Source of the DNA: a virus
Taxonomy: Duplodnaviria > Heunggongvirae > Uroviricota > Caudoviricetes
Virus record (IMG/VR): IMGVR_UViG_2547132278_000008
Coordinates: 1 to 12,292 of that record
Strand: one strand, 5' to 3'
DNA length: 12,292 nt
Shown: positions 1,865 to 9,941 of the stretch, in pieces
Position numbering within the stretch: position 1 is the first letter of the stretch
Layout of the letters: each line of letters starts with the position of its first letter
Position numbers and translations under genes: made by a program
Notes under the pieces: generated by a model
Told to the model about the DNA's origin: nothing
Databases searched by the model: none
Seen by the model: only the letters and a program-made list of their open reading frames with translations

Positions 1865-1922
1865 TTGCCAGACATAAAATCAAATGCAAAAATAGGTATA
1901 TACTTACCTATCGAGAAAGAAG

Positions 1923-2932: not shown

Positions 2933-3514
2933 TAGATAAGTACAAACTATTCATAAAGTGAATTGTAAGTGCTAAGATCTGATAGTTTCCAGTCGTAGAC
3001 TGGAGACTCGACCTGATGGGTGGGGGTAAGCGTCACTGGCGTCAGGTTTAAAAAAGCTCACTACCAGCGTAGAACTGGTGCCGTTTAGGTGTCGGGGAAG
3101 GGGGAACCAAAGTGAGCAGAGACAAGGGTCACTTTATGATTGTCGAGTCTGGGGTGTTTCGAGAGGTTGAATCCAGTACTCCCCTTCATAAAGTGTGGGA
3201 AGATCTCGGTTCTGGGGTGCTGTCATCCATAACTTCCCAAGTCTAAGCTGGCAGTAGACTTAGACCATAACTTTTCAGGTTATGAAACGACCAGGTTGGT
3301 GAGAGATTTTTATACTCACCTCCCTGGGAGAGTATTACCTGAAAAGACAACCTCTCACTTCGTTCGAGGTGAACTTCACTCACTTCGTTCGTTCAGTTCA
3401 GGTTTATAAAAACCTGTTCTGGGAAGTAATTTGTTTATTTTAATAATTATTAACACGCACGCGTGTGCGCACGCGCGAGGAAAAATCGGCGCGGCGCTTG
3501 ATTCAGGAGTTTAT
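2933..3514. other. ORF-free, repeat-rich and hairpin-rich intergenic region; candidate structured ncRNA, origin or regulatory hub
   Basis: No ORF of 60 aa or more on either strand. Hairpins include CCAGTC gta GACTGG (2989-3003), GGTGAG...CTCACC (3298-3320) and AGGTTT ataa AAACCT (3401-3416). Direct repeats include TCTGGGGTG at 3138-3146 and 3211-3219, and CACTTCGTTCG at 3356-3366 and 3381-3391. Confidence 0.3.
3453..3477. repeat. 25-nt perfectly alternating purine-pyrimidine tract (Z-DNA-prone) with central CACGCGTG palindrome
   Basis: ACACGCACGCGTGTGCGCACGCGCG read directly; lies about 40 bp upstream of the RNase HI start codon. Confidence 0.9.
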
Positions 3515-4105: not shown

Positions 4106-4202
4106 TAAGTAAGTGTTTACCTATCATTTTAAATCATGTATCTTATCGGCGTCAGGATGACAATGTGTCGGTAAGACACAGTTCCAGGATGGAACGAGAA
4201 AG

Positions 4203-4761: not shown

Positions 4762-4946
4762 ACTGGTTTTCAAATCACTTTGGAAAAATTTGGCTGGCAA
4801 TTCTTGCCCTCATGGCCGCCGGTTGGGTATCGAACATTATAAAACTTGTTTGCTCTGGCGATCTCCAGTTTCAGGCTGGCATGACCTTGGCTCGTGTAGT
4901 TGGGATTTTTGTTTTTCCAGTCGGTTCGGTACTTGGTTATTTCTGA
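4758..4946 (+). CDS. Small membrane protein (62 aa, two predicted transmembrane helices)
   Basis: ATG 4758 overlaps the preceding stop (ATGA). Hydrophobic segments IWLAILALMAAGWV and VVGIFVFPVGSVLGYF. Confidence 0.45.
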   Translation: MNWFSNHFGKIWLAILALMAAGWVSNIIKLVCSGDLQFQAGMTLARVVGIFVFPVGSVLGYF

Positions 4947-5001
4947 CGGCTGTTAGTGCATATGCATTGACCATCTTTGCGTAAGCAATTTATGTAATTA
5001 G

Positions 5002-5020
5002 AAAACAACTTGTTTTGACA
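5002..5020. promoter_or_regulatory. Perfect palindromic operator-like site AAAACAA-C-TTGTTTT overlapping a consensus TTGACA hexamer
   Basis: Read directly at 5002-5016; TTGACA at 5015-5020. Sits 23 nt upstream of ATG 5040. A possible -35/-10 pair (TTGACC 4967-4972, TATGTA 4991-4996) lies upstream, but the promoter assignment is uncertain. Confidence 0.45.
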
Positions 5021-5039
5021 AATAATAAAAGGAAAACAC

Positions 5040-5465
5040 ATGTTAGGTTTCTTCAAAAAGAAAACTCGTAAAGCTGTTATCGAAGTCAAAAAAATGGAGA
5101 ACCGTGATGCGGTTGAGGCCACCGTGTGGGGCGCGTACATGATCTCCTATGCCGACGGCACATGTGACGCAAAAGAAATTGCCATTCTTGAGAAGACAAT
5201 TGCAGCTCTGCCTGCGTTTTCTCCGTTTGCTGGTGAAATTGCCCAAATGAGCGCCAATATCCGTGCTCGTTACGAAGCGTCCCCTCGTTCTGCTAATGCA
5301 CAGGCTATTCGTGAGCTGTCTGATATTGCGGGTACTCCAGAGGCGGTCGATGTTCTGTGTCTGTGCCTTGATATTGCCGATCAGGACGGCATTGGTGAAC
5401 AAGAAGAGCAGGCACTGAAAAAGATCGCCCAGGCGCTTCAGTTGTCACTGGATGCTTATCTCTAA
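5040..5465 (+). CDS. TerB-like (tellurite-resistance TerB family) protein, 141 aa
   Basis: AAGGA at 5029-5033 precedes ATG 5040. Two TerB-type repeats with acidic Asp-Gly motifs (ISYADGTCDAKEIAILEK and CLDIADQDGIGEQEEQALKKI) match the TerB architecture from memory. Confidence 0.7.
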   Translation: MLGFFKKKTRKAVIEVKKMENRDAVEATVWGAYMISYADGTCDAKEIAILEKTIAALPAFSPFAGEIAQMSANIRARYEASPRSANAQAIRELSDIAGTPEAVDVLCLCLDIADQDGIGEQEEQALKKIAQALQLSLDAYL

Positions 5466-5623
5466 TGCTTGAGAGATTCCGGCTTGTGATCGTCATTGCT
5501 CTTCTGGTGATGGCGGTGTTGGTGGATTTTACGGGAAAGATGATGTCTGTCATTTCTGATGGCGTCCTCATTGGTTTGGCGATCTACTTCGCTTATCCGT
5601 TAGTTCGTAAAGCAAAGTGTTAA
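5465..5623 (+). CDS. Unannotated small membrane protein (52 aa), translationally coupled to the TerB-like gene
   Basis: TAATG stop/start overlap at 5463-5467. Hand translation gives MLERFRLVIVIALLVMAVLVDFTGKMMSVISDGVLIGLAIYFAYPLVRKAKC with two hydrophobic segments. It is below the 60-aa threshold of the ORF track. Confidence 0.5.
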   Translation: MLERFRLVIVIALLVMAVLVDFTGKMMSVISDGVLIGLAIYFAYPLVRKAKC

Positions 5624-5625
5624 TG

Positions 5626-5653
5626 ACAAGGGCCATTTGGCCCTTGTGTTTCG
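5626..5653 (+). terminator. Rho-independent terminator after the TerB-like/membrane pair
   Basis: ACAAGGGCC attt GGCCCTTGT forms a 9-bp stem, then GTTTCG. Confidence 0.5.
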
Positions 5654-5730
5654 TTGACCGAAATAGAGAGTTTGCACCTTTACGTTTAGCTTGCTCCCCT
5701 TTTATGCCACATCACAATAAAGCCAATAAG

Positions 5731-5745
5731 AAAACAACTTGTTTA
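5731..5745. promoter_or_regulatory. Second copy of the operator-like palindrome (AAAACAACTTGTTTA)
   Basis: Matches the 5002-5016 site at 14 of 15 positions within a shared AGAAAACAACTTGTTT context; sits 17 nt upstream of ATG 5763. Confidence 0.45.
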
Positions 5746-5762
5746 AGCATTAAGGAAAACAC

Positions 5763-6329
5763 ATGTGCGAGAAATGCAAAGCAATAGCTGATGAACAAAA
5801 CGCCCTATTCGAAGAAATGGATGCTAATGAACTTGTCAAAATGTTAGGCATTGTTCGGGGAACAGAAGACGTTTCTATATTTGAGAGACTGTTTACAGTA
5901 CTTAATTTTAATTCCACCTTTGAAGAGCCAACTCAGGTTGTAGCTTTGGCACACCATTTCGGTGTTCATTATCTTGCCGAAAAAGAGCGCGCTAATAAGT
6001 TGCAGGCGACTTTGGATATGGTGAGCGAGACTCAAGGAACCCATGACGGTAACAATAGTGAGACGATTATTGCCAGCAAAGATCGTGAAATTGCCGGACT
6101 TAAGTCTTCTCTAACGATGTTGATGTCTGCAATCAATCTTATGTCTTCTAAAGCGGGATATAAAATGCCATCACTAAACAGTGACGATCCAATGGCCGTT
6201 CGCCAGCTTTTGGGAGCAATGGCCGACCAGCTTGATGATACGAAAAGTCGGCTTGAAGACATGATGCGGGAGCTTACGCATCGCCACGACTTGAATAAGC
6301 AACCGCACAAAACGCAATACGCACTCTAA
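5763..6329 (+). CDS. Hypothetical protein (188 aa)
   Basis: AAGGA at 5752-5756 precedes ATG 5763. No recognised motif. The gene has its own operator-like site upstream and a terminator downstream. Confidence 0.6.
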   Translation: MCEKCKAIADEQNALFEEMDANELVKMLGIVRGTEDVSIFERLFTVLNFNSTFEEPTQVVALAHHFGVHYLAEKERANKLQATLDMVSETQGTHDGNNSETIIASKDREIAGLKSSLTMLMSAINLMSSKAGYKMPSLNSDDPMAVRQLLGAMADQLDDTKSRLEDMMRELTHRHDLNKQPHKTQYAL

Positions 6330-6346
6330 TACTGCACCAGTCGACA

Positions 6347-6368
6347 GGGGGCGAAAGCCCCCATTTTT
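6347..6368 (+). terminator. Rho-independent terminator with GAAA tetraloop
   Basis: GGGGGC gaaa GCCCCC followed by ATTTTT. Confidence 0.7.
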
Positions 6369-6427
6369 ACGCCTTAAATCTGCTGTAACGCCTATGAATG
6401 CAGCTTTTATGCCTTTTTAAGTTTGCG

Positions 6428-6472
6428 ATAATTACACCAATCAGAAAACAAATTATTTAATGGTGTAATTAT
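6428..6472. promoter_or_regulatory. 12-bp perfect inverted repeat embracing a degenerate operator motif and the start codon of the 6471 gene
   Basis: ATAATTACACCA (6428-6439) pairs with TGGTGTAATTAT (6461-6472). The 21-nt spacer holds AAAACAAaTTATTTA (6445-6459), and the A and T of ATG 6471 lie inside the right arm. Confidence 0.45.
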
Positions 6473-8156
6473 GAATACAGCCCTTTCCATCATCGACGAT
6501 GCCAGCTCAAACACGGCTATCGACTATCGTCAGGAAATGAATGTCATCCACGAAATCGTGGCCGAGTGCGAGAAAGAGATCGCCTTCATGTATCAGGTAC
6601 ACGACTTCGTTTATGGCGACGAACGCCACAACATGATTAATCGCCTGCTGAGACTAAACCATCGACCAGATGAAGATCGCTCGCGTTTAAATCGAGGTTG
6701 GTTGGATAAAGTCGATCTGGAATGGGTGAAACAGAATATTTGGGCCGAGTACTGGAGGAAGGTCACGGACATGACTAACGTTTTGCTGATCATGCCAGCT
6801 TCCCGTCGAGATGAGTGGCGCGAGCAGTTTATAGAGGGCAAACAGGAAGTCATCAAAACTGACAGAACCGGCTGCCAGATGAAGGTTAAAGAGTTCGTTG
6901 GTGTACCGGAGTTCAAAGCAGAAACGGTCATACCCACGATGCTTAATTTGCTGAATGACAGGCACAAATATCTCTCTGAGCGCGTGTATGGCTTGTTTAA
7001 GGCGCTGAGTCCTGCGCACAAGACAAATAAGACAAACGGTTTCAGCGAGCGTCTGATAATCGCTGACTGCATTTCTGATTTCTGGCGGGACAGCGTTAGC
7101 GTGAACTATCGCAAAGAGGACTACATCGACGATCTGCGTGTCTTGCTTCATTTCTTCGCGCACAAAGAATTTATTACCATCAACCGCACTGCTGAGGTGC
7201 TATCAGCTGCGTATCGGGCAAACGACTGCCAGACCGGTGACTGGATGAACGTCGATGGAAATCTGATGCGCGTGAAGATGTTCAAGAACGGCAACGTTCA
7301 CTTTGAAATACATCCTGACGTGGCCTGGAAGTTGAATGAGGTGCTGGCTTACAGTATGCCTGCTGCAATCCCCGCGCCATGCCGAACTGCGCCAAAAACA
7401 CGGGCACCAAAGCAGTTCGGGTTAATCCAGAAGACGATCTCCGTGCCGGTTCGCACTGCGCTTCGTGACGGGCGATTGAGCAAAGACAAAGGCGTATGGT
7501 ACTTCTCTGATTCAGCTCTCCAGAAGTCGCAGGTGGAAGAGCTTGAGCGCACACTGAGCTTCATTGGCGGCGTGCAGGAGAAAAAGCACTGGCAGTTCCC
7601 GTATGACATCGGCCATACGCTAAATACGATTGTGGCTACCGGTTTAATACCGGATACAAAATCACACCAGTTCTACCCTACCCCACGCTTGATTGCTGAG
7701 TACGTTGCAAGAGCCACTGAATTGAAGCCTGGTGAGAAGCTGTTGGAGCCTCAAGCCGGACGTGGGGATCTTCTGGCCTATATAAACGCCGATCTGGAAG
7801 ATGTTACCTGCATAGAAATCGCACCTCTCTTCGCTGATATCCTGCGTGGAAAAGGGTATACGAACACGATTTGCTGCGACTTCATAAAGTGGTCTGAGGA
7901 CAACGCAGGTTATCAGTTCGACAAAATCGTTATGAACCCGCCGTACTCGCTTGGTCGTCATAGAGAGCACACGCTGGCTGCGCTGGGGCATCTGAAAGTC
8001 GGCGGGCGTCTTGTAGCAGTATTGCCGGGCACTGCGCCAATACTGGACTGGATGACGATGGATAATTACGTTTATGCCAGAGGGAAGTCGTTTACCAACG
8101 AGTTTGAAGACACAGGGATCACAGTCAGCGTATACGTTTTCAAACGCGTTAAATGA
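6471..8156 (+). CDS. Large protein (561 aa): N-terminal ~400 aa of unknown function fused to a C-terminal N6-adenine methyltransferase domain
   Basis: A motif I-like segment (LLEPQAGRGDLLAYI) and motif IV (VMNPPYS) sit in the last ~150 residues. The N-terminal region has no motif I recognise. Confidence 0.75.
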   Translation: MNTALSIIDDASSNTAIDYRQEMNVIHEIVAECEKEIAFMYQVHDFVYGDERHNMINRLLRLNHRPDEDRSRLNRGWLDKVDLEWVKQNIWAEYWRKVTDMTNVLLIMPASRRDEWREQFIEGKQEVIKTDRTGCQMKVKEFVGVPEFKAETVIPTMLNLLNDRHKYLSERVYGLFKALSPAHKTNKTNGFSERLIIADCISDFWRDSVSVNYRKEDYIDDLRVLLHFFAHKEFITINRTAEVLSAAYRANDCQTGDWMNVDGNLMRVKMFKNGNVHFEIHPDVAWKLNEVLAYSMPAAIPAPCRTAPKTRAPKQFGLIQKTISVPVRTALRDGRLSKDKGVWYFSDSALQKSQVEELERTLSFIGGVQEKKHWQFPYDIGHTLNTIVATGLIPDTKSHQFYPTPRLIAEYVARATELKPGEKLLEPQAGRGDLLAYINADLEDVTCIEIAPLFADILRGKGYTNTICCDFIKWSEDNAGYQFDKIVMNPPYSLGRHREHTLAALGHLKVGGRLVAVLPGTAPILDWMTMDNYVYARGKSFTNEFEDTGITVSVYVFKRVK

Positions 8157-8217
8157 TAGGTAAATACTTACTTAATTTATGTAAGAATGTAGTTACTAAA
8201 CGATAAGAGAAAAACAC

Positions 8218-9332: not shown

Positions 9333-9367
9333 AAGGCCATAAGTTATGGCCTTAAATAAATTGTTTT
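9333..9367 (+). terminator. Hairpin with downstream T-tract (terminator-like); tail carries a degenerate operator half-site
   Basis: AAGGCCATAA g TTATGGCCTT (9333-9353), then AAATAAATTGTTTT (9354-9367). Confidence 0.45.
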
Positions 9368-9440
9368 CTACCTTTTCTTATTTGTGAAAATAAACCAGCA
9401 CTTGGTAGTGCTTATGTAACAGCAAAGAAGAGAAAAACAC

Positions 9441-9941
9441 ATGAGTAACAAAATCGAAAATCCCGTAGTTCTCATTCACAAGCGCGAGAACCACGACTCC
9501 TATGCGGTGGCGATCACCAATGGGAGTCACGATTTTTACGATGGCCTGCTAATGGCCTCAGTGTCGCCTGATGAGGCAGACAACTCTTTTGCCGTCTTCG
9601 CTATGGTTGGTTACTACATGGCTGCCGAAATTGAGAAGTTGCGGGCGCAAAGAGACGCATTAGCGGCGGAGAATGCAGCCCTGAAAGAATCTGAGCGAGC
9701 ATTCGATGCGATGTGTGCCGAGGAACACGGAGATAATTGGGTTAGCGAATTAACGGAGACTCCAGCCACCGATACTTTTCTGGCTGAAGTACGTGCGCAG
9801 GGCGTGGATATGGCTCGTAACGCGATGATTGATTTTGTTGATGGTGAAGTTGGGCCAAACAAGAACGTTCCGGGGCTGATTAGAGGCGCAGAGATATGCG
9901 TAAGTATTGCTGAACAGCTTCGTAAAGGAGTCATCCAGTGA
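9441..9941 (+). CDS. Hypothetical phage protein (166 aa), first gene of a six-gene coupled operon
   Basis: Leader ...GAAGAGAAAAACACATG. Contains a coiled-coil-like AEIEKLRAQRDALAAENAALKE segment. Confidence 0.6.
   Translation: MSNKIENPVVLIHKRENHDSYAVAITNGSHDFYDGLLMASVSPDEADNSFAVFAMVGYYMAAEIEKLRAQRDALAAENAALKESERAFDAMCAEEHGDNWVSELTETPATDTFLAEVRAQGVDMARNAMIDFVDGEVGPNKNVPGLIRGAEICVSIAEQLRKGVIQ

What the first reader, a model, noticed from the sequence alone, without database searches (positions are those of the whole stretch)
5002..6459. Shared operator-like palindrome AAAACAA-C-TTGTTTT upstream of three consecutive cassettes
A perfect 15-bp palindrome occurs at 5002-5016 and a 14/15 copy at 5731-5745, both in the context AGAAAACAACTTGTTT. 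A degenerate copy sits at 6445-6459, and a possible further degenerate copy (AAATAAATTGTTTT) at 9354-9367 ahead of the 9441 operon. Recurrence of one dyad-symmetric site in front of unrelated genes suggests co-regulation by a single dimeric regulator that is not obviously encoded in this window.
Basis: seen in the sequence. Interest (0 to 1): 0.6.

Follow-up and report, generated by a model that had tools for sequence, protein, structure and literature searches.

The report
Dispersed operator-like palindrome of a phage-plasmid
The repeated palindrome is real: it is one of about twenty conserved copies of a control site placed next to the promoters of an SSU5-type phage-plasmid, most likely the docking site of one element-encoded regulator that keeps these genes silent while the phage lives as a plasmid.

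Summary
The window is part of an SSU5-like phage-plasmid (98% identical to E. coli plasmid pS2-S1K81-2, 97% to phage Cyrano). It holds four copies of AG-AAAACAA-N-TTGTTT(A/T): 5000-5016, 5729-5745 and 6443-6459 on the + strand, and 9353-9369 in reverse.

Whole genomes carry 17-21 copies (pS2, SSU5, Klebsiella pJN2-26). Nearly all are intergenic. None occurs in 818 kb of enterobacterial chromosome.

Forward copies lie 10-11 nt downstream of an extended -10-like element (TGnGATAAT), so at about +4 to +20. Reverse copies lie 18 nt upstream of such an element. Some promoters have both, 51 bp apart.

The motif stays the same between relatives while the flanks diverge. All departures from symmetry are one-sided, and the RNA hairpin is negligible.

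In published RNA-seq of a Cyrano lysogen the downstream genes are at background.

Best reading: dispersed operators of one element-encoded repressor encoded outside the window, analogous to P1 C1 operators or L5 stoperators. The regulator is not identified.

Main rival: an mRNA-leader site for the element's FljA-family protein, which models as a tandem Hfq-like fold.

I found no published description.

The parts
5000..5016 (+). Motif copy A, AGAAAACAACTTGTTTT (dyad 5002-5016), 23 nt before the ATG of the TerB/TciA-like gene
   Evidence: Orthologous copies in pS2, Cyrano, Klebsiella phages
4967..4996 (+). Inferred sigma-70 promoter for copy A: TTGACC (4967-4972), 18-nt spacer, TATGTA (4991-4996). 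It would start transcription inside or just before the motif
   Evidence: read from the sequence. Inferred; no start-site data
5729..5745 (+). Motif copy B, AGAAAACAACTTGTTTA, 17 nt before the ATG of the 188-aa gene
   Evidence: Conserved in SSU5 and the Klebsiella phage while flanks diverge
5713..5718 (+). -10-like hexamer CACAAT, 10 nt upstream of the AG of copy B
   Evidence: same hexamer and spacing at the pS2 and SSU5 orthologues. Inferred promoter
6443..6459 (+). Motif copy C, AGAAAACAAATTATTTA, 11 nt before the ATG of the DUF4942 gene
   Evidence: The SSU5 orthologue is a perfect copy
6424..6432 (+). Extended -10-like element TGCGATAAT, 10 nt upstream of the AG of copy C
   Evidence: Inferred promoter
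9353..9369 (-). Motif copy D in reverse orientation (AGAAAACAATTTATTTA on the - strand), directly abutting the hairpin 9333-9353
   Evidence: Conserved in SSU5 at 85601
9383..9391 (+). Extended -10-like element TGTGAAAAT, 18 nt downstream of the dyad of copy D. Inferred promoter of the operon starting at 9441
   Evidence: Same 18-nt spacing at other reverse copies
5626..5647 (+). Terminator-like hairpin that closes the tciA/tciB cassette before promoter B
6347..6362 (+). Terminator-like hairpin that closes the 188-aa gene cassette before promoter C
9333..9353 (.). G+C-rich hairpin immediately next to copy D. Hairpins at equivalent reverse copies differ by compensatory changes
   Evidence: -12 kcal/mol, z about -3. 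Sequences listed
5040..5623 (+). Downstream genes of copy A: TerB/TciA-like (5040-5465) and DUF3927/TciB-like (5465-5623)
5763..6329 (+). Downstream gene of copy B, 188 aa, no known family
6471..8156 (+). Downstream gene of copy C, DUF4942 protein (annotated as a putative DNA methylase in relatives)
9441..9941 (+). First gene of the operon downstream of copy D

Best explanation
The palindrome is the operator of a genome-wide regulon of SSU5-like phage-plasmids.

Each small gene cassette carries its own terminator, a sigma-70 promoter that is usually of the extended -10 type (TGnGATAAT), and one copy of AG-AAAACAA-N-TTGTTT(A/T). That copy is centred about 14 bp downstream of the inferred start site. 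Some promoters instead, or in addition, carry a reverse copy centred near -38.

A symmetric (dimeric or tetrameric) DNA-binding protein, encoded by the element but outside this window, is proposed to occupy these sites in the plasmid (lysogenic) state. From there it would block initiation, promoter escape or read-through. This would keep about 20 separate lytic or accessory transcription units silent with one protein, as P1 C1 does from its dispersed operators and mycobacteriophage L5 gp71 does from its stoperators.

Shown: the repeat family, its copy number, its placement, its conservation and its lack of hairpin behaviour; and, from published RNA-seq, that the downstream genes are silent in a lysogen.

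Inferred: the promoters and start sites, DNA-level recognition, repression rather than activation, and the identity of the protein. Candidates that are conserved and expressed in the lysogen are the ParA partner protein, the 92-aa CYRAN_117-like protein and the FljA-like protein.
For: Enrichment:
- 9 vs 0.85 expected in the window.
- 42 strand-hits vs 4.1 +/- 2.2 in shuffles of the 112-kb relative pS2.
- 21, 20, 17 and 13 distinct sites (<=2 mismatches) in pS2, SSU5, pJN2-26 and a partial Klebsiella phage genome.
- 0 sites in 818 kb of enterobacterial chromosomal loci.

Placement:
- 18-19 of 21 pS2 sites are intergenic, judged against the CDS tables. They sit ahead of nrdB, tciA, DUF4942, the dnaB-like helicase, cobT, parA, the terminase operon and many small genes.
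- The site keeps a fixed distance to a -10-like hexamer: 10-11 nt in 14 of 23 sites with a good hexamer.
- Its distance to the start codon varies from about 10 to 39 nt.
- Reverse copies lie 18 nt upstream of an extended -10 element. Paired copies are exactly 51 bp apart at four diverged promoters.
- The nearly invariant half AGAAAACAA faces the -10 element in both orientations.

Conservation: in orthologous intergenic regions the motif, the -10 element and the ribosome-binding site are kept while the rest diverges. The motif is unchanged in elements whose proteins are only 52-60% identical.

Symmetry without structure:
- Among 57 distinct sites there are 46 one-sided departures from symmetry, one site changed on both sides, and no complementary double change. 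The central base is free.
- The RNA hairpin is worth -1 kcal/mol, z -0.6. There is no Rfam match.

Expression: in the LF82 lysogen of Cyrano, genes behind motif copies read 5.7-25.5 against a median of 9.8 (tciA 7.0, CYRAN_87 7.1, CYRAN_93 6.3, CYRAN_101 7.5). These values come from PMC9928086, supplementary file 2, with sites mapped to genes.
Against: - No protein-DNA binding data exist and no transcription start sites are known. The promoter assignments are consensus matches only.
- No regulator could be assigned. All candidates co-occur in every genome examined, so presence/absence does not discriminate.
- The HTH repressor next to the integrase (CYRAN_45 type) is absent from SSU5 and only 56% identical in pJN2-26, yet the motif is unchanged. 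Its own upstream region carries a different palindrome.
- The parA operon carries the motif, yet two of its genes are expressed 6-9-fold above background in the lysogen (Table 1 of PMC9928086).
- The right half of the site is less conserved than the left, so the site is not perfectly symmetric.
- The element encodes an RNA-binding-type protein and most copies lie in predicted mRNA leaders, which keeps an RNA-level mechanism open.
- The <=2-mismatch threshold used to collect sites partly suppresses double changes, so the lack of covariation is weaker evidence than the counts suggest.
Confidence: 0.55

Rival explanations
1. RNA-level control. The forward copies act in the 5' leaders of the mRNAs. 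They would be bound by the element's FljA-family protein, whose founding member represses translation of Salmonella fliC through its 5' UTR. Binding could be direct or assisted by small RNAs carrying the same self-complementary sequence. The A-rich and U-rich halves would suit a two-faced Hfq-like protein.
For: - The relative pS2 encodes a full-length member of Pfam PF03614 (repressor of phase-1 flagellin), E = 1.5e-84, with a weak Hfq match.
- It is a core gene of these elements. Nearly all homologues found sit on contigs of about 100-115 kb.
- Its AlphaFold model is confident (pLDDT 85, pTM 0.82). It is two repeats of one helix plus five strands. The best PDB matches are Hfq proteins, rmsd 1.1-1.2 A over 56-57 residues.
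- It is expressed in the lysogen at about twice background, and higher in macrophage samples.
- It is 79-83% identical across elements that have the same motif.
- About two thirds of the copies are in sense orientation between the inferred start site and the ribosome-binding site.
- The Salmonella-type fliC leader contains CCAATAA followed by CAAGTTGT. This resembles ..CCAATAAGAAAACAAnTTGT.. of the phage leaders.
- Published work describes FljA-type proteins as blocking fliC mRNA translation (PMC2652032).
Against: - A reverse-complement dyad has no obvious use for a single-strand RNA binder, and the hairpin is unstable.
- Conserved reverse copies sit upstream of the -10 element, where they would not be in the leader.
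- Spacing is fixed relative to the -10 element, not relative to the ribosome-binding site.
- The fliC match is only 10 of 14 core positions. It misses two invariant positions and is absent from the E. coli-type leader.
- The FljA-like gene may simply be a lysogenic-conversion gene aimed at host flagellin.
Confidence: 0.22
2. The copies are remnants of a duplicated promoter cassette that spreads with, or mediates, modular gene shuffling. This would resemble the promoter-stem-loop cassettes of T4-type phages. There would be no dedicated binding protein, and the palindrome would be an inherited passenger or a recombination hotspot.
For: - The copies share more than the dyad: a GCCTT(T/A)T element near -28, the -10 element, the stretch ..ACACCAATAAG.. 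and often AAGGAAAACACATG.
- Homology between the window and distant Klebsiella phages begins exactly at the motif, at query position 1002 = window 5001 (hits H25-H27, tciA alignment).
- Cassettes are individually bounded by terminators.
Against: - Within the cassettes the dyad is far better conserved than its surroundings: information content 1.3-1.9 bits per position against <0.8 bits for nearly all flank positions (the only exception is one T of the -10-like element, 1.56 bits), over 41 sites.
- It is unchanged across genera.
- It occurs with different promoter geometries (copy A, the parA promoter) and in reverse orientation at a fixed distance.
- Neutral remnants would decay at the rate of the flanks.
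Confidence: 0.08
3. The site is bound by a host protein, either a nucleoid-associated protein or a transcription factor of Enterobacteriaceae. The element would then tie its gene expression to host physiology.
For: - The motif is identical in elements from five host genera, as expected for a conserved host factor.
- It is A/T-rich, like many nucleoid-protein sites.
Against: - No copy (<=2 mismatches) was found in 818 kb of enterobacterial chromosomal DNA fetched for another purpose.
- From my own knowledge, it does not fit the consensus of IHF, Fis, CRP, LexA, KdgR, NrdR or other E. coli regulators. I did not test this against a database.
- A real LexA box elsewhere in the element looks quite different.
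Confidence: 0.06
4. The site binds an activator. The promoters would be silent in the lysogen because the activator is made only after induction, and the dyad would recruit or remodel RNA polymerase.
For: - Reverse copies centred near -38 are where class II activators sit.
- The promoters lack good -35 hexamers.
- The two ParB_N-domain proteins and other early genes are silent in the lysogen.
Against: - Most copies are centred near +14, downstream of the inferred start. Activators do not normally work from there.
- Extended -10 promoters usually need no activator (established knowledge).
Confidence: 0.07

Closest known systems
Phage P1 C1 repressor and its dispersed operators
   Same: A phage-plasmid in which one repressor controls many separate operons through more than a dozen operators scattered round the genome. 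The operators lie at or just downstream of promoters (my knowledge of the P1 literature).
   Different: The P1 operator is an asymmetric 17-mer (ATTGCTCTAATAAATTT), unrelated in sequence. Here the core is a 13-15 bp dyad. No C1 homologue was looked for or seen, and the binding protein is unknown.
Mycobacteriophage L5 gp71 stoperators (cluster A phages)
   Same: About 20-30 short sites in short intergenic spaces, with an orientation bias relative to transcription. They act downstream of promoters to silence the lytic genome in lysogeny (PMC6550527 appeared in the search but was not read; the rest is my knowledge).
   Different: Stoperators are 13-bp asymmetric sites bound by a monomeric HTH repressor. 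Here the site is symmetric, keeps a fixed distance to a -10 element, and sometimes flanks the promoter on both sides.
RK2 KorA/KorB and inc18 omega global plasmid regulators; dispersed centromere sites of phage-plasmid N15
   Same: Palindromes with a single central base (KorB OB: TTTAGC-S-GCTAAA) recur at many promoters of one replicon. Partition proteins double as global repressors. N15 has single palindromic centromere sites dispersed near phage promoters (my knowledge). Here the parA promoter carries the motif, and the ParA partner protein is the most conserved candidate, at 90-92% identity.
   Different: There is no sequence similarity. The two ParB_N-domain proteins of the element are silent in the lysogen. 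The ParA partner has no recognisable DNA-binding family. No centromere function was tested.
FljA-fliC leader translational control in Salmonella
   Same: The element encodes a bona fide FljA-family protein. Most motif copies lie in predicted 5' leaders. The Salmonella fliC leader shares CCAATAA...CAAGTTGT.
   Different: The fliC match is partial. The motif is a DNA-type dyad with conserved copies outside leaders, and its spacing follows the promoter, not the ribosome-binding site.
Promoter-early stem-loop (PeSL) cassettes of T4-type phages
   Same: Small accessory genes each carry their own promoter and hairpin. The shared regulatory sequences mark the junctions of mosaic segments (my knowledge; junction at window 5001).
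   Different: PeSLs are not known to carry a conserved dyad operator. Here the dyad is the best conserved part of the cassette.

Membership tests
Operator of a symmetric DNA-binding repressor (generic) | Dyad symmetry, with each half conserved independently | tested here: met
   13-bp core AAACAA-N-TTGTTT in 57 distinct sites. All departures but one are one-sided, and none is a complementary double change.
Operator of a symmetric DNA-binding repressor (generic) | Overlaps or abuts a promoter or transcription start at a constrained distance | tested here: inconclusive
   Fixed 10-11 nt (forward copies) or 18 nt (reverse copies) from -10-like elements. The promoters are consensus matches only, with no start-site data.
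Operator of a symmetric DNA-binding repressor (generic) | Specific binding by a cognate protein, and derepression when the site or the protein is removed | not testable with these tools
   Indirect only: the downstream genes are at background in a lysogen.
Intrinsic terminator or structured RNA element | Stable stem-loop supported by compensatory changes | tested here: not met
   -1 kcal/mol, z -0.6. No complementary double changes. No Rfam family at E<=1.
FljA-type translational operator | Lies in the 5' UTR of the regulated mRNA | tested here: inconclusive
   True for the forward copies if the inferred start sites are right. False for the conserved reverse copies.
FljA-type translational operator | Resembles the known target, the fliC leader | tested here: inconclusive
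   The Salmonella-type leader shares CCAATAA and CAAGTTGT but matches only 10 of 14 core positions. The E. coli-type leader does not match.
FljA-type translational operator | A cognate FljA-family protein is present in the same element | tested here: met
   PF03614, E 1.5e-84. Tandem Hfq-like model. Present in every genome checked.
P1 C1 operator | Asymmetric 17-bp consensus ATTGCTCTAATAAATTT (recalled from the literature) | tested here: not met
   The motif consensus is AGAAAACAANTTGTTTW. The comparison was made by eye against a recalled consensus.
LexA (SOS) box | CTGT-N8-ACAG | tested here: not met
   The motif lacks it. A true LexA box (TACTGTTTATCCATACAGTA) lies before the UmuD-like gene of pS2.
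L5-type stoperator | Many short sites in intergenic spaces, oriented relative to transcription, silencing lytic genes in lysogeny | tested here: inconclusive
   The copy number, the intergenic location and the orientation of the stronger half toward the promoter are seen. The site is symmetric and is not confined to one orientation. The mechanism was not tested.
Partition centromere (type Ib) | Array of several adjacent short repeats next to parA | tested here: not met
   There is only one motif copy in the roughly 130 bp between the terminator and parA. No iterated repeats are seen.

The most novel reading that the evidence does not exclude
The motif would be the target of the element's FljA-family protein, a tandem Hfq-like RNA binder, which would control about 15-20 phage mRNA leaders after transcription. 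Small RNAs made from the reverse 'motif + hairpin' units might assist it. In that case the Salmonella flagellar phase-variation repressor FljA would be a domesticated member of a phage-plasmid family of global translational regulators, and the fliC leader would imitate a phage leader.
Probability: 0.18. Interest if true: 0.8.

Novelty: new member of a known kind. Interest (0 to 1): 0.55.

Why it matters
SSU5-like phage-plasmids are common in Escherichia, Klebsiella, Salmonella and Enterobacter (693 plasmid records matched this window). Some carry blaCTX-M-15 next to this very region. How they keep about 100 kb of lytic genes silent as plasmids is essentially unstudied: I found no paper describing their operators or regulators.

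A single conserved 17-bp site at about 20 promoters gives a direct experimental handle.
- It can be used as bait to identify the regulator.
- It predicts the regulon.
- It defines portable, co-regulated promoter cassettes.
- It may explain where mosaic junctions fall.

If the binder turns out to be the FljA/Hfq-like protein or the partition protein, the result would also bear on the origin of flagellar phase-variation control, or on how plasmid maintenance and phage silencing are coupled.

Tried and rejected
- **Hairpin, terminator or riboswitch reading.** Rejected. Folding energy is negligible, there is no covariation and no Rfam hit.
- **CYRAN_45-type HTH repressor as the binder.** Unlikely. 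It is absent from SSU5 and only 56% identical in pJN2-26 while the motif is unchanged. Its own upstream region carries a different palindrome, GGTAAG-NN-CTTACC.
- **ParB_N-domain proteins as a KorB-like lysogenic silencer.** Unlikely. They are not expressed in the lysogen.
- **S24 peptidase next to the window.** It is UmuD-like, with a LexA box and no HTH.
- **The 92-aa CYRAN_117-like protein as an Arc/Mnt-type ribbon-helix-helix repressor.**
  - The idea came from reading the sequence and from its high expression in the lysogen (114 vs 9.8).
  - It is not supported: no Pfam or PDB match, hhalign probability 0.07% against Mnt, and an AlphaFold model of only pLDDT 54.
  - The motif-like sequence at its start codon in pS2 is absent in the Cronobacter-type element, so it is a chance match.
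  - It is only 52-63% identical among elements that share an identical motif.
- **Presence/absence profiling of candidates.** Uninformative, because all are core genes.
- **Literature searches by name and by sequence string.** Nothing found. The key FljA paper (PMC1347349) is not held.
- **IMG/VR scan for the exact 17-mer.** It returned mainly SSU5-like contexts plus scattered single matches. No second phage group with multiple copies stood out.
- **Promoter alternative from the scan tool at copy A** (TAGAAA-16-AATAAT). Rejected, because it would start the mRNA inside the ribosome-binding site.
Full report
**What the window is.** The 5.5 kb around the finding match 693 plasmid records. The best is E. 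coli plasmid pS2-S1K81-2 (NZ_CP107145.1, 111,932 bp), at 98.2% over the full length. They also match phage Cyrano of E. coli LF82 at 97%, and match Salmonella phage SSU5 and Klebsiella phage-plasmids in part at 79-88%. So the window is a piece of an SSU5-like phage-plasmid, not an integrated prophage. It lies in the early/accessory region, which encodes an exonuclease, Dam methylase, RNase H, a TerB/TciA-like protein, DUF3927/TciB, DUF4942 and Ead/Ea22-like proteins.

**The observation.**
- With up to 3 mismatches the 15-mer gives 9 strand-matches in the window. Dinucleotide-preserving shuffles give 0.85 on average, and none of 200 reaches 9.
- The repeated unit is really a 17-mer, AGAAAACAANTTGTTTW.
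- On that definition the window holds 5000-5016 (+, perfect), 5729-5745 (+, perfect), 6443-6459 (+, 1 mismatch) and 9353-9369 (- strand, 1 mismatch).
The SSU5 orthologue of the third is a perfect copy.

**It is a genome-wide family.**
- I assembled pS2 from three fetched pieces and scanned it. It has 21 distinct sites at <=2 mismatches of 16 specified positions. At <=3 mismatches there are 42 strand-hits, against 4.1 +/- 2.2 in shuffles.
- SSU5 has 20 sites, Klebsiella phage pJN2-26 has 17, and an 84-kb partial Klebsiella phage genome has 13.
- 20-kb loci from Cronobacter-type and Nissabacter-type relatives have 7-9 each.
- 818 kb of enterobacterial and other chromosomal loci, fetched for a different purpose, contain none.
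- Judged against the CDS tables-19 of the 21 pS2 sites are intergenic.
- The sites precede unrelated units: nrdB, tciA, the 188-aa gene, DUF4942, a dnaB-like helicase, cobT, parA, a string of small genes, and the terminase/structural operon. The terminase operon has two tandem copies followed by a terminator-like hairpin.

**Anatomy.**
- *Conserved positions.* I aligned 41 sites from pS2 and SSU5 on the motif. The AG and both half-sites carry 1.3-1.9 bits per position. The central base is free: A18, G14, T13, C12 over 57 distinct sites. The last position is A in 70% rather than the T that symmetry predicts. A T lying 11 nt upstream of the AG is 95% conserved.
- *Forward copies.* That T is the last base of a -10-like hexamer (GATAAT, TATTAT, GAAAAT, CACAAT), often preceded by TGn, as in extended -10 promoters. 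The hexamer ends 10-11 nt before the AG in 14 of the 23 sites that have a good hexamer. If transcription starts about 7 nt after the hexamer, the dyad occupies roughly +4 to +20.
- *Distance to the gene.* The distance from the site to the start codon varies from about 10 to 39 nt.
- *Reverse copies.* These include window 9353-9369. They read TAAAYAANTTGTTTT-CTRCC on the coding strand and lie exactly 18 nt upstream of an extended -10 element. In the window that element is TGTGAAAAT at 9383-9391. This places the dyad centre near -38.
- *Paired copies.* At four diverged promoters both kinds are present, with dyad centres 51 bp apart: pS2 80893/80842, SSU5 88318/88369 and 93661/93712, and Klebsiella phage 36860/36809, whose orthologue in pJN2-26 is 28538/28589.
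- *Orientation.* In both orientations the nearly invariant half (AGAAAACAA) faces the -10 element.
- *Copy A is different.* A canonical TTGACC (4967-4972), 18 nt, TATGTA (4991-4996) would start transcription at the motif itself.
- *Cassette boundaries.* The cassettes are separated by terminator-like hairpins at 5626-5647 and 6347-6362.
- All promoter statements are inferences from consensus. No start-site data were available.

**Selection.**
- In alignments of orthologous intergenic regions from the window, SSU5 and a Klebsiella phage, the conserved blocks are a GCCTT(T/A)T element near -28, the -10 element with the following ..ACACCAA.., the motif, and the ribosome-binding site. The rest diverges.
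- Upstream of tciA, the window and the Klebsiella phage are unalignable until the motif begins. Matches to three distant Klebsiella phages start at window 5001 (H25-H27). The cassettes are therefore also mosaic junctions.
- The motif is unchanged in elements whose candidate regulator proteins are only 52-60% identical to those of pS2.

**Not a hairpin.**
- The 17-mer folds with -1 kcal/mol (z -0.6). The leaders fold no better than shuffles.
- Among 57 distinct sites there are 46 one-sided departures from symmetry. One site is changed on both sides, and none shows a complementary double change. The caveat is that collecting sites at <=2 mismatches disfavours double changes.
- No Rfam family matches the window at E<=1 in this region.

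**Expression.** Cyrano is a functional phage-plasmid that ciprofloxacin induces 39-fold (PMC9928086). I used that paper's per-gene RNA-seq table for the LF82 lysogen in LB (supplementary file 2; median 9.8) and mapped Cyrano's motif copies to genes.
- Genes behind motif copies are at background: tciA 7.0, CYRAN_87 7.1, CYRAN_93 6.3, CYRAN_101 7.5, CYRAN_105 12.8, CYRAN_106 12.2, CYRAN_108 5.7, CYRAN_111 25.5.
- Promoters that look constitutive but are silent in the lysogen point to repression.
- The exception is the parA operon. It carries the motif, but two of its genes are 6-9-fold above background.

**Who binds?** This was not resolved.
- No window ORF has a DNA-binding domain.
- *CYRAN_45-type HTH repressor.* It sits next to the integrase and is expressed in the lysogen. 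It is missing from SSU5 and only 56% identical in pJN2-26. Its own upstream region carries another palindrome.
- *The two ParB_N proteins.* They are silent in the lysogen.
- *Opposite-strand block.* A conserved block on the opposite strand is expressed in the lysogen: UvsW-like helicase 46, a 92-aa protein (CYRAN_117) 114, a lipoprotein 29 and an FljA-like protein 18.
- *The 92-aa protein.* It looked to me like a ribbon-helix-helix protein, but nothing supports that. It is also the least conserved candidate, at 52-63% identity.
- *The ParA partner (117 aa).* It is the most conserved candidate, at 90-92% identity, and is expressed in the lysogen. It belongs to no known family. Only one motif copy precedes parA, and there are no centromere-like repeats there.
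- *The FljA-like protein.* It is a full-length member of PF03614 (E 1.5e-84). It models confidently (pLDDT 85) as two Hfq-like repeats.

**Why the RNA-level rival stays open.** Published work describes FljA-type proteins as blocking fliC mRNA translation (PMC2652032). Two thirds of the motif copies lie in predicted leaders. The Salmonella-type fliC leader (gcccaataacatcaagttgtaattgataagga) shares CCAATAA and CAAGTTGT with the phage leaders.

Four points speak against it. The match is 10 of 14 core positions and is missing from the E. coli-type leader. A reverse-complement dyad is what a symmetric DNA binder needs, not what a single-strand RNA binder needs. Conserved reverse copies lie outside leaders. 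And spacing follows the promoter, not the ribosome-binding site.

**Verdict.**
- It is best explained as the operator of a dispersed regulon (confidence about 0.55 for DNA-level repression by an element-encoded symmetric protein). I put about 0.85 on the broader statement that it is the cis site of a single trans-acting, element-encoded regulator.
- It works like the dispersed operators of P1 C1 or the stoperators of mycobacteriophage L5. It is not a sequence member of either family.
- I found no description of it in the searchable literature. Older subscription papers on pHCM2 and pMT1 could not be searched.
- I rate it a new member of a known kind, of moderate to good interest. It gives a direct experimental route to the unknown lysogeny control of a clinically widespread group of phage-plasmids.

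Noticed in passing
window 1895-1908, 4108-4121, 8159-8172; pS2 17049; SSU5 2034, 27477, 78712: A second dispersed palindrome, (A/T)ATA-GGTAAG-NN-CTTACC-TAT. There are 12-17 copies per genome against about 3 in shuffles. It is usually placed right after a stop codon or just before the next gene, and the longer copies fold into 8-12 kcal/mol hairpins. A perfect copy sits in the 5' region of the CYRAN_45-type repressor gene in both pS2 and pJN2-26. It could be the operator of that repressor, or a terminator or processing hairpin.
   Followed up: partly
window 2985-3300 (+), includes the annotated 44-aa ORF at 3112-3246 (CYRAN_81): A gene-poor, relatively G+C-rich stretch. It folds unusually well on the + strand (-111.8 kcal/mol, z -2.9, 0 of 100 shuffles as good). 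It corresponds to a transcript that is 12-fold above background in the Cyrano lysogen (117 vs 9.8). There is no Rfam, Pfam or PHROG match. It may be a non-coding RNA expressed in the plasmid state.
   Followed up: partly
pS2 72530-73054 (outside the window); SSU5_121; pJN226_0046: SSU5-like phage-plasmids carry, as a core gene, a full-length FljA homologue (repressor of phase-1 flagellin). Its AlphaFold model is a tandem Hfq/Sm-like fold. I am not aware of a solved structure for this family, and sequence search of the PDB found none.
   Followed up: partly
pS2 66742-66830; SSU5 40-135; pJN2-26 38610-38690: The terminase/structural operon is preceded by a promoter-like element, then one or two motif copies 25 bp apart, then a G+C-rich hairpin followed by GTGTGTTTT just before the small-terminase start. 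This looks like a promoter-proximal terminator, so late genes may be under antitermination.
   Followed up: no
window 5001; window 4930-5070 vs Klebsiella phage ST13-OXA48phi12.3 47775-47920: Homology to distant relatives starts exactly at the motif. Upstream sequence is unrelated. The promoter/operator cassettes therefore coincide with mosaic junctions.
   Followed up: partly
about 16-22 nt upstream of the -10 elements, e.g. window 6402-6408 (GCCTTTT); the same element at many promoters in pS2, SSU5 and the Klebsiella phages: A conserved GCCTT(T/A)T / CTRCCTT(T/A)T block lies near -28, where a -35 hexamer would not fit. Its function is unknown. It could be another protein contact, or shared ancestry of the cassettes.
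   Followed up: no
pS2 84709-84760, just beyond the window's right end: A UmuD-like S24 peptidase gene with no HTH has a canonical LexA box (TACTGTTTATCCATACAGTA) upstream. It is among the most highly expressed genes in the lysogen (148) and rises further in macrophage samples. It may link the SOS response to induction.
   Followed up: no
window 6430-6439 and 6461-6470: A perfect 10-bp inverted repeat, AATTACACCA / TGGTGTAATT, brackets motif copy C and reaches the start codon (-6.5 kcal/mol for the inner 7 pairs, 11 of 200 shuffles as good). It is only partly conserved in SSU5 and the Klebsiella phage.
   Followed up: partly
locus L242 (E. coli chromosome CP125919.1, 381-402 kb): A chromosomal, apparently decaying copy of an SSU5-like element. 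Its FljA-like gene is degraded, and its motif copies have accumulated 2-3 mismatches.
   Followed up: no
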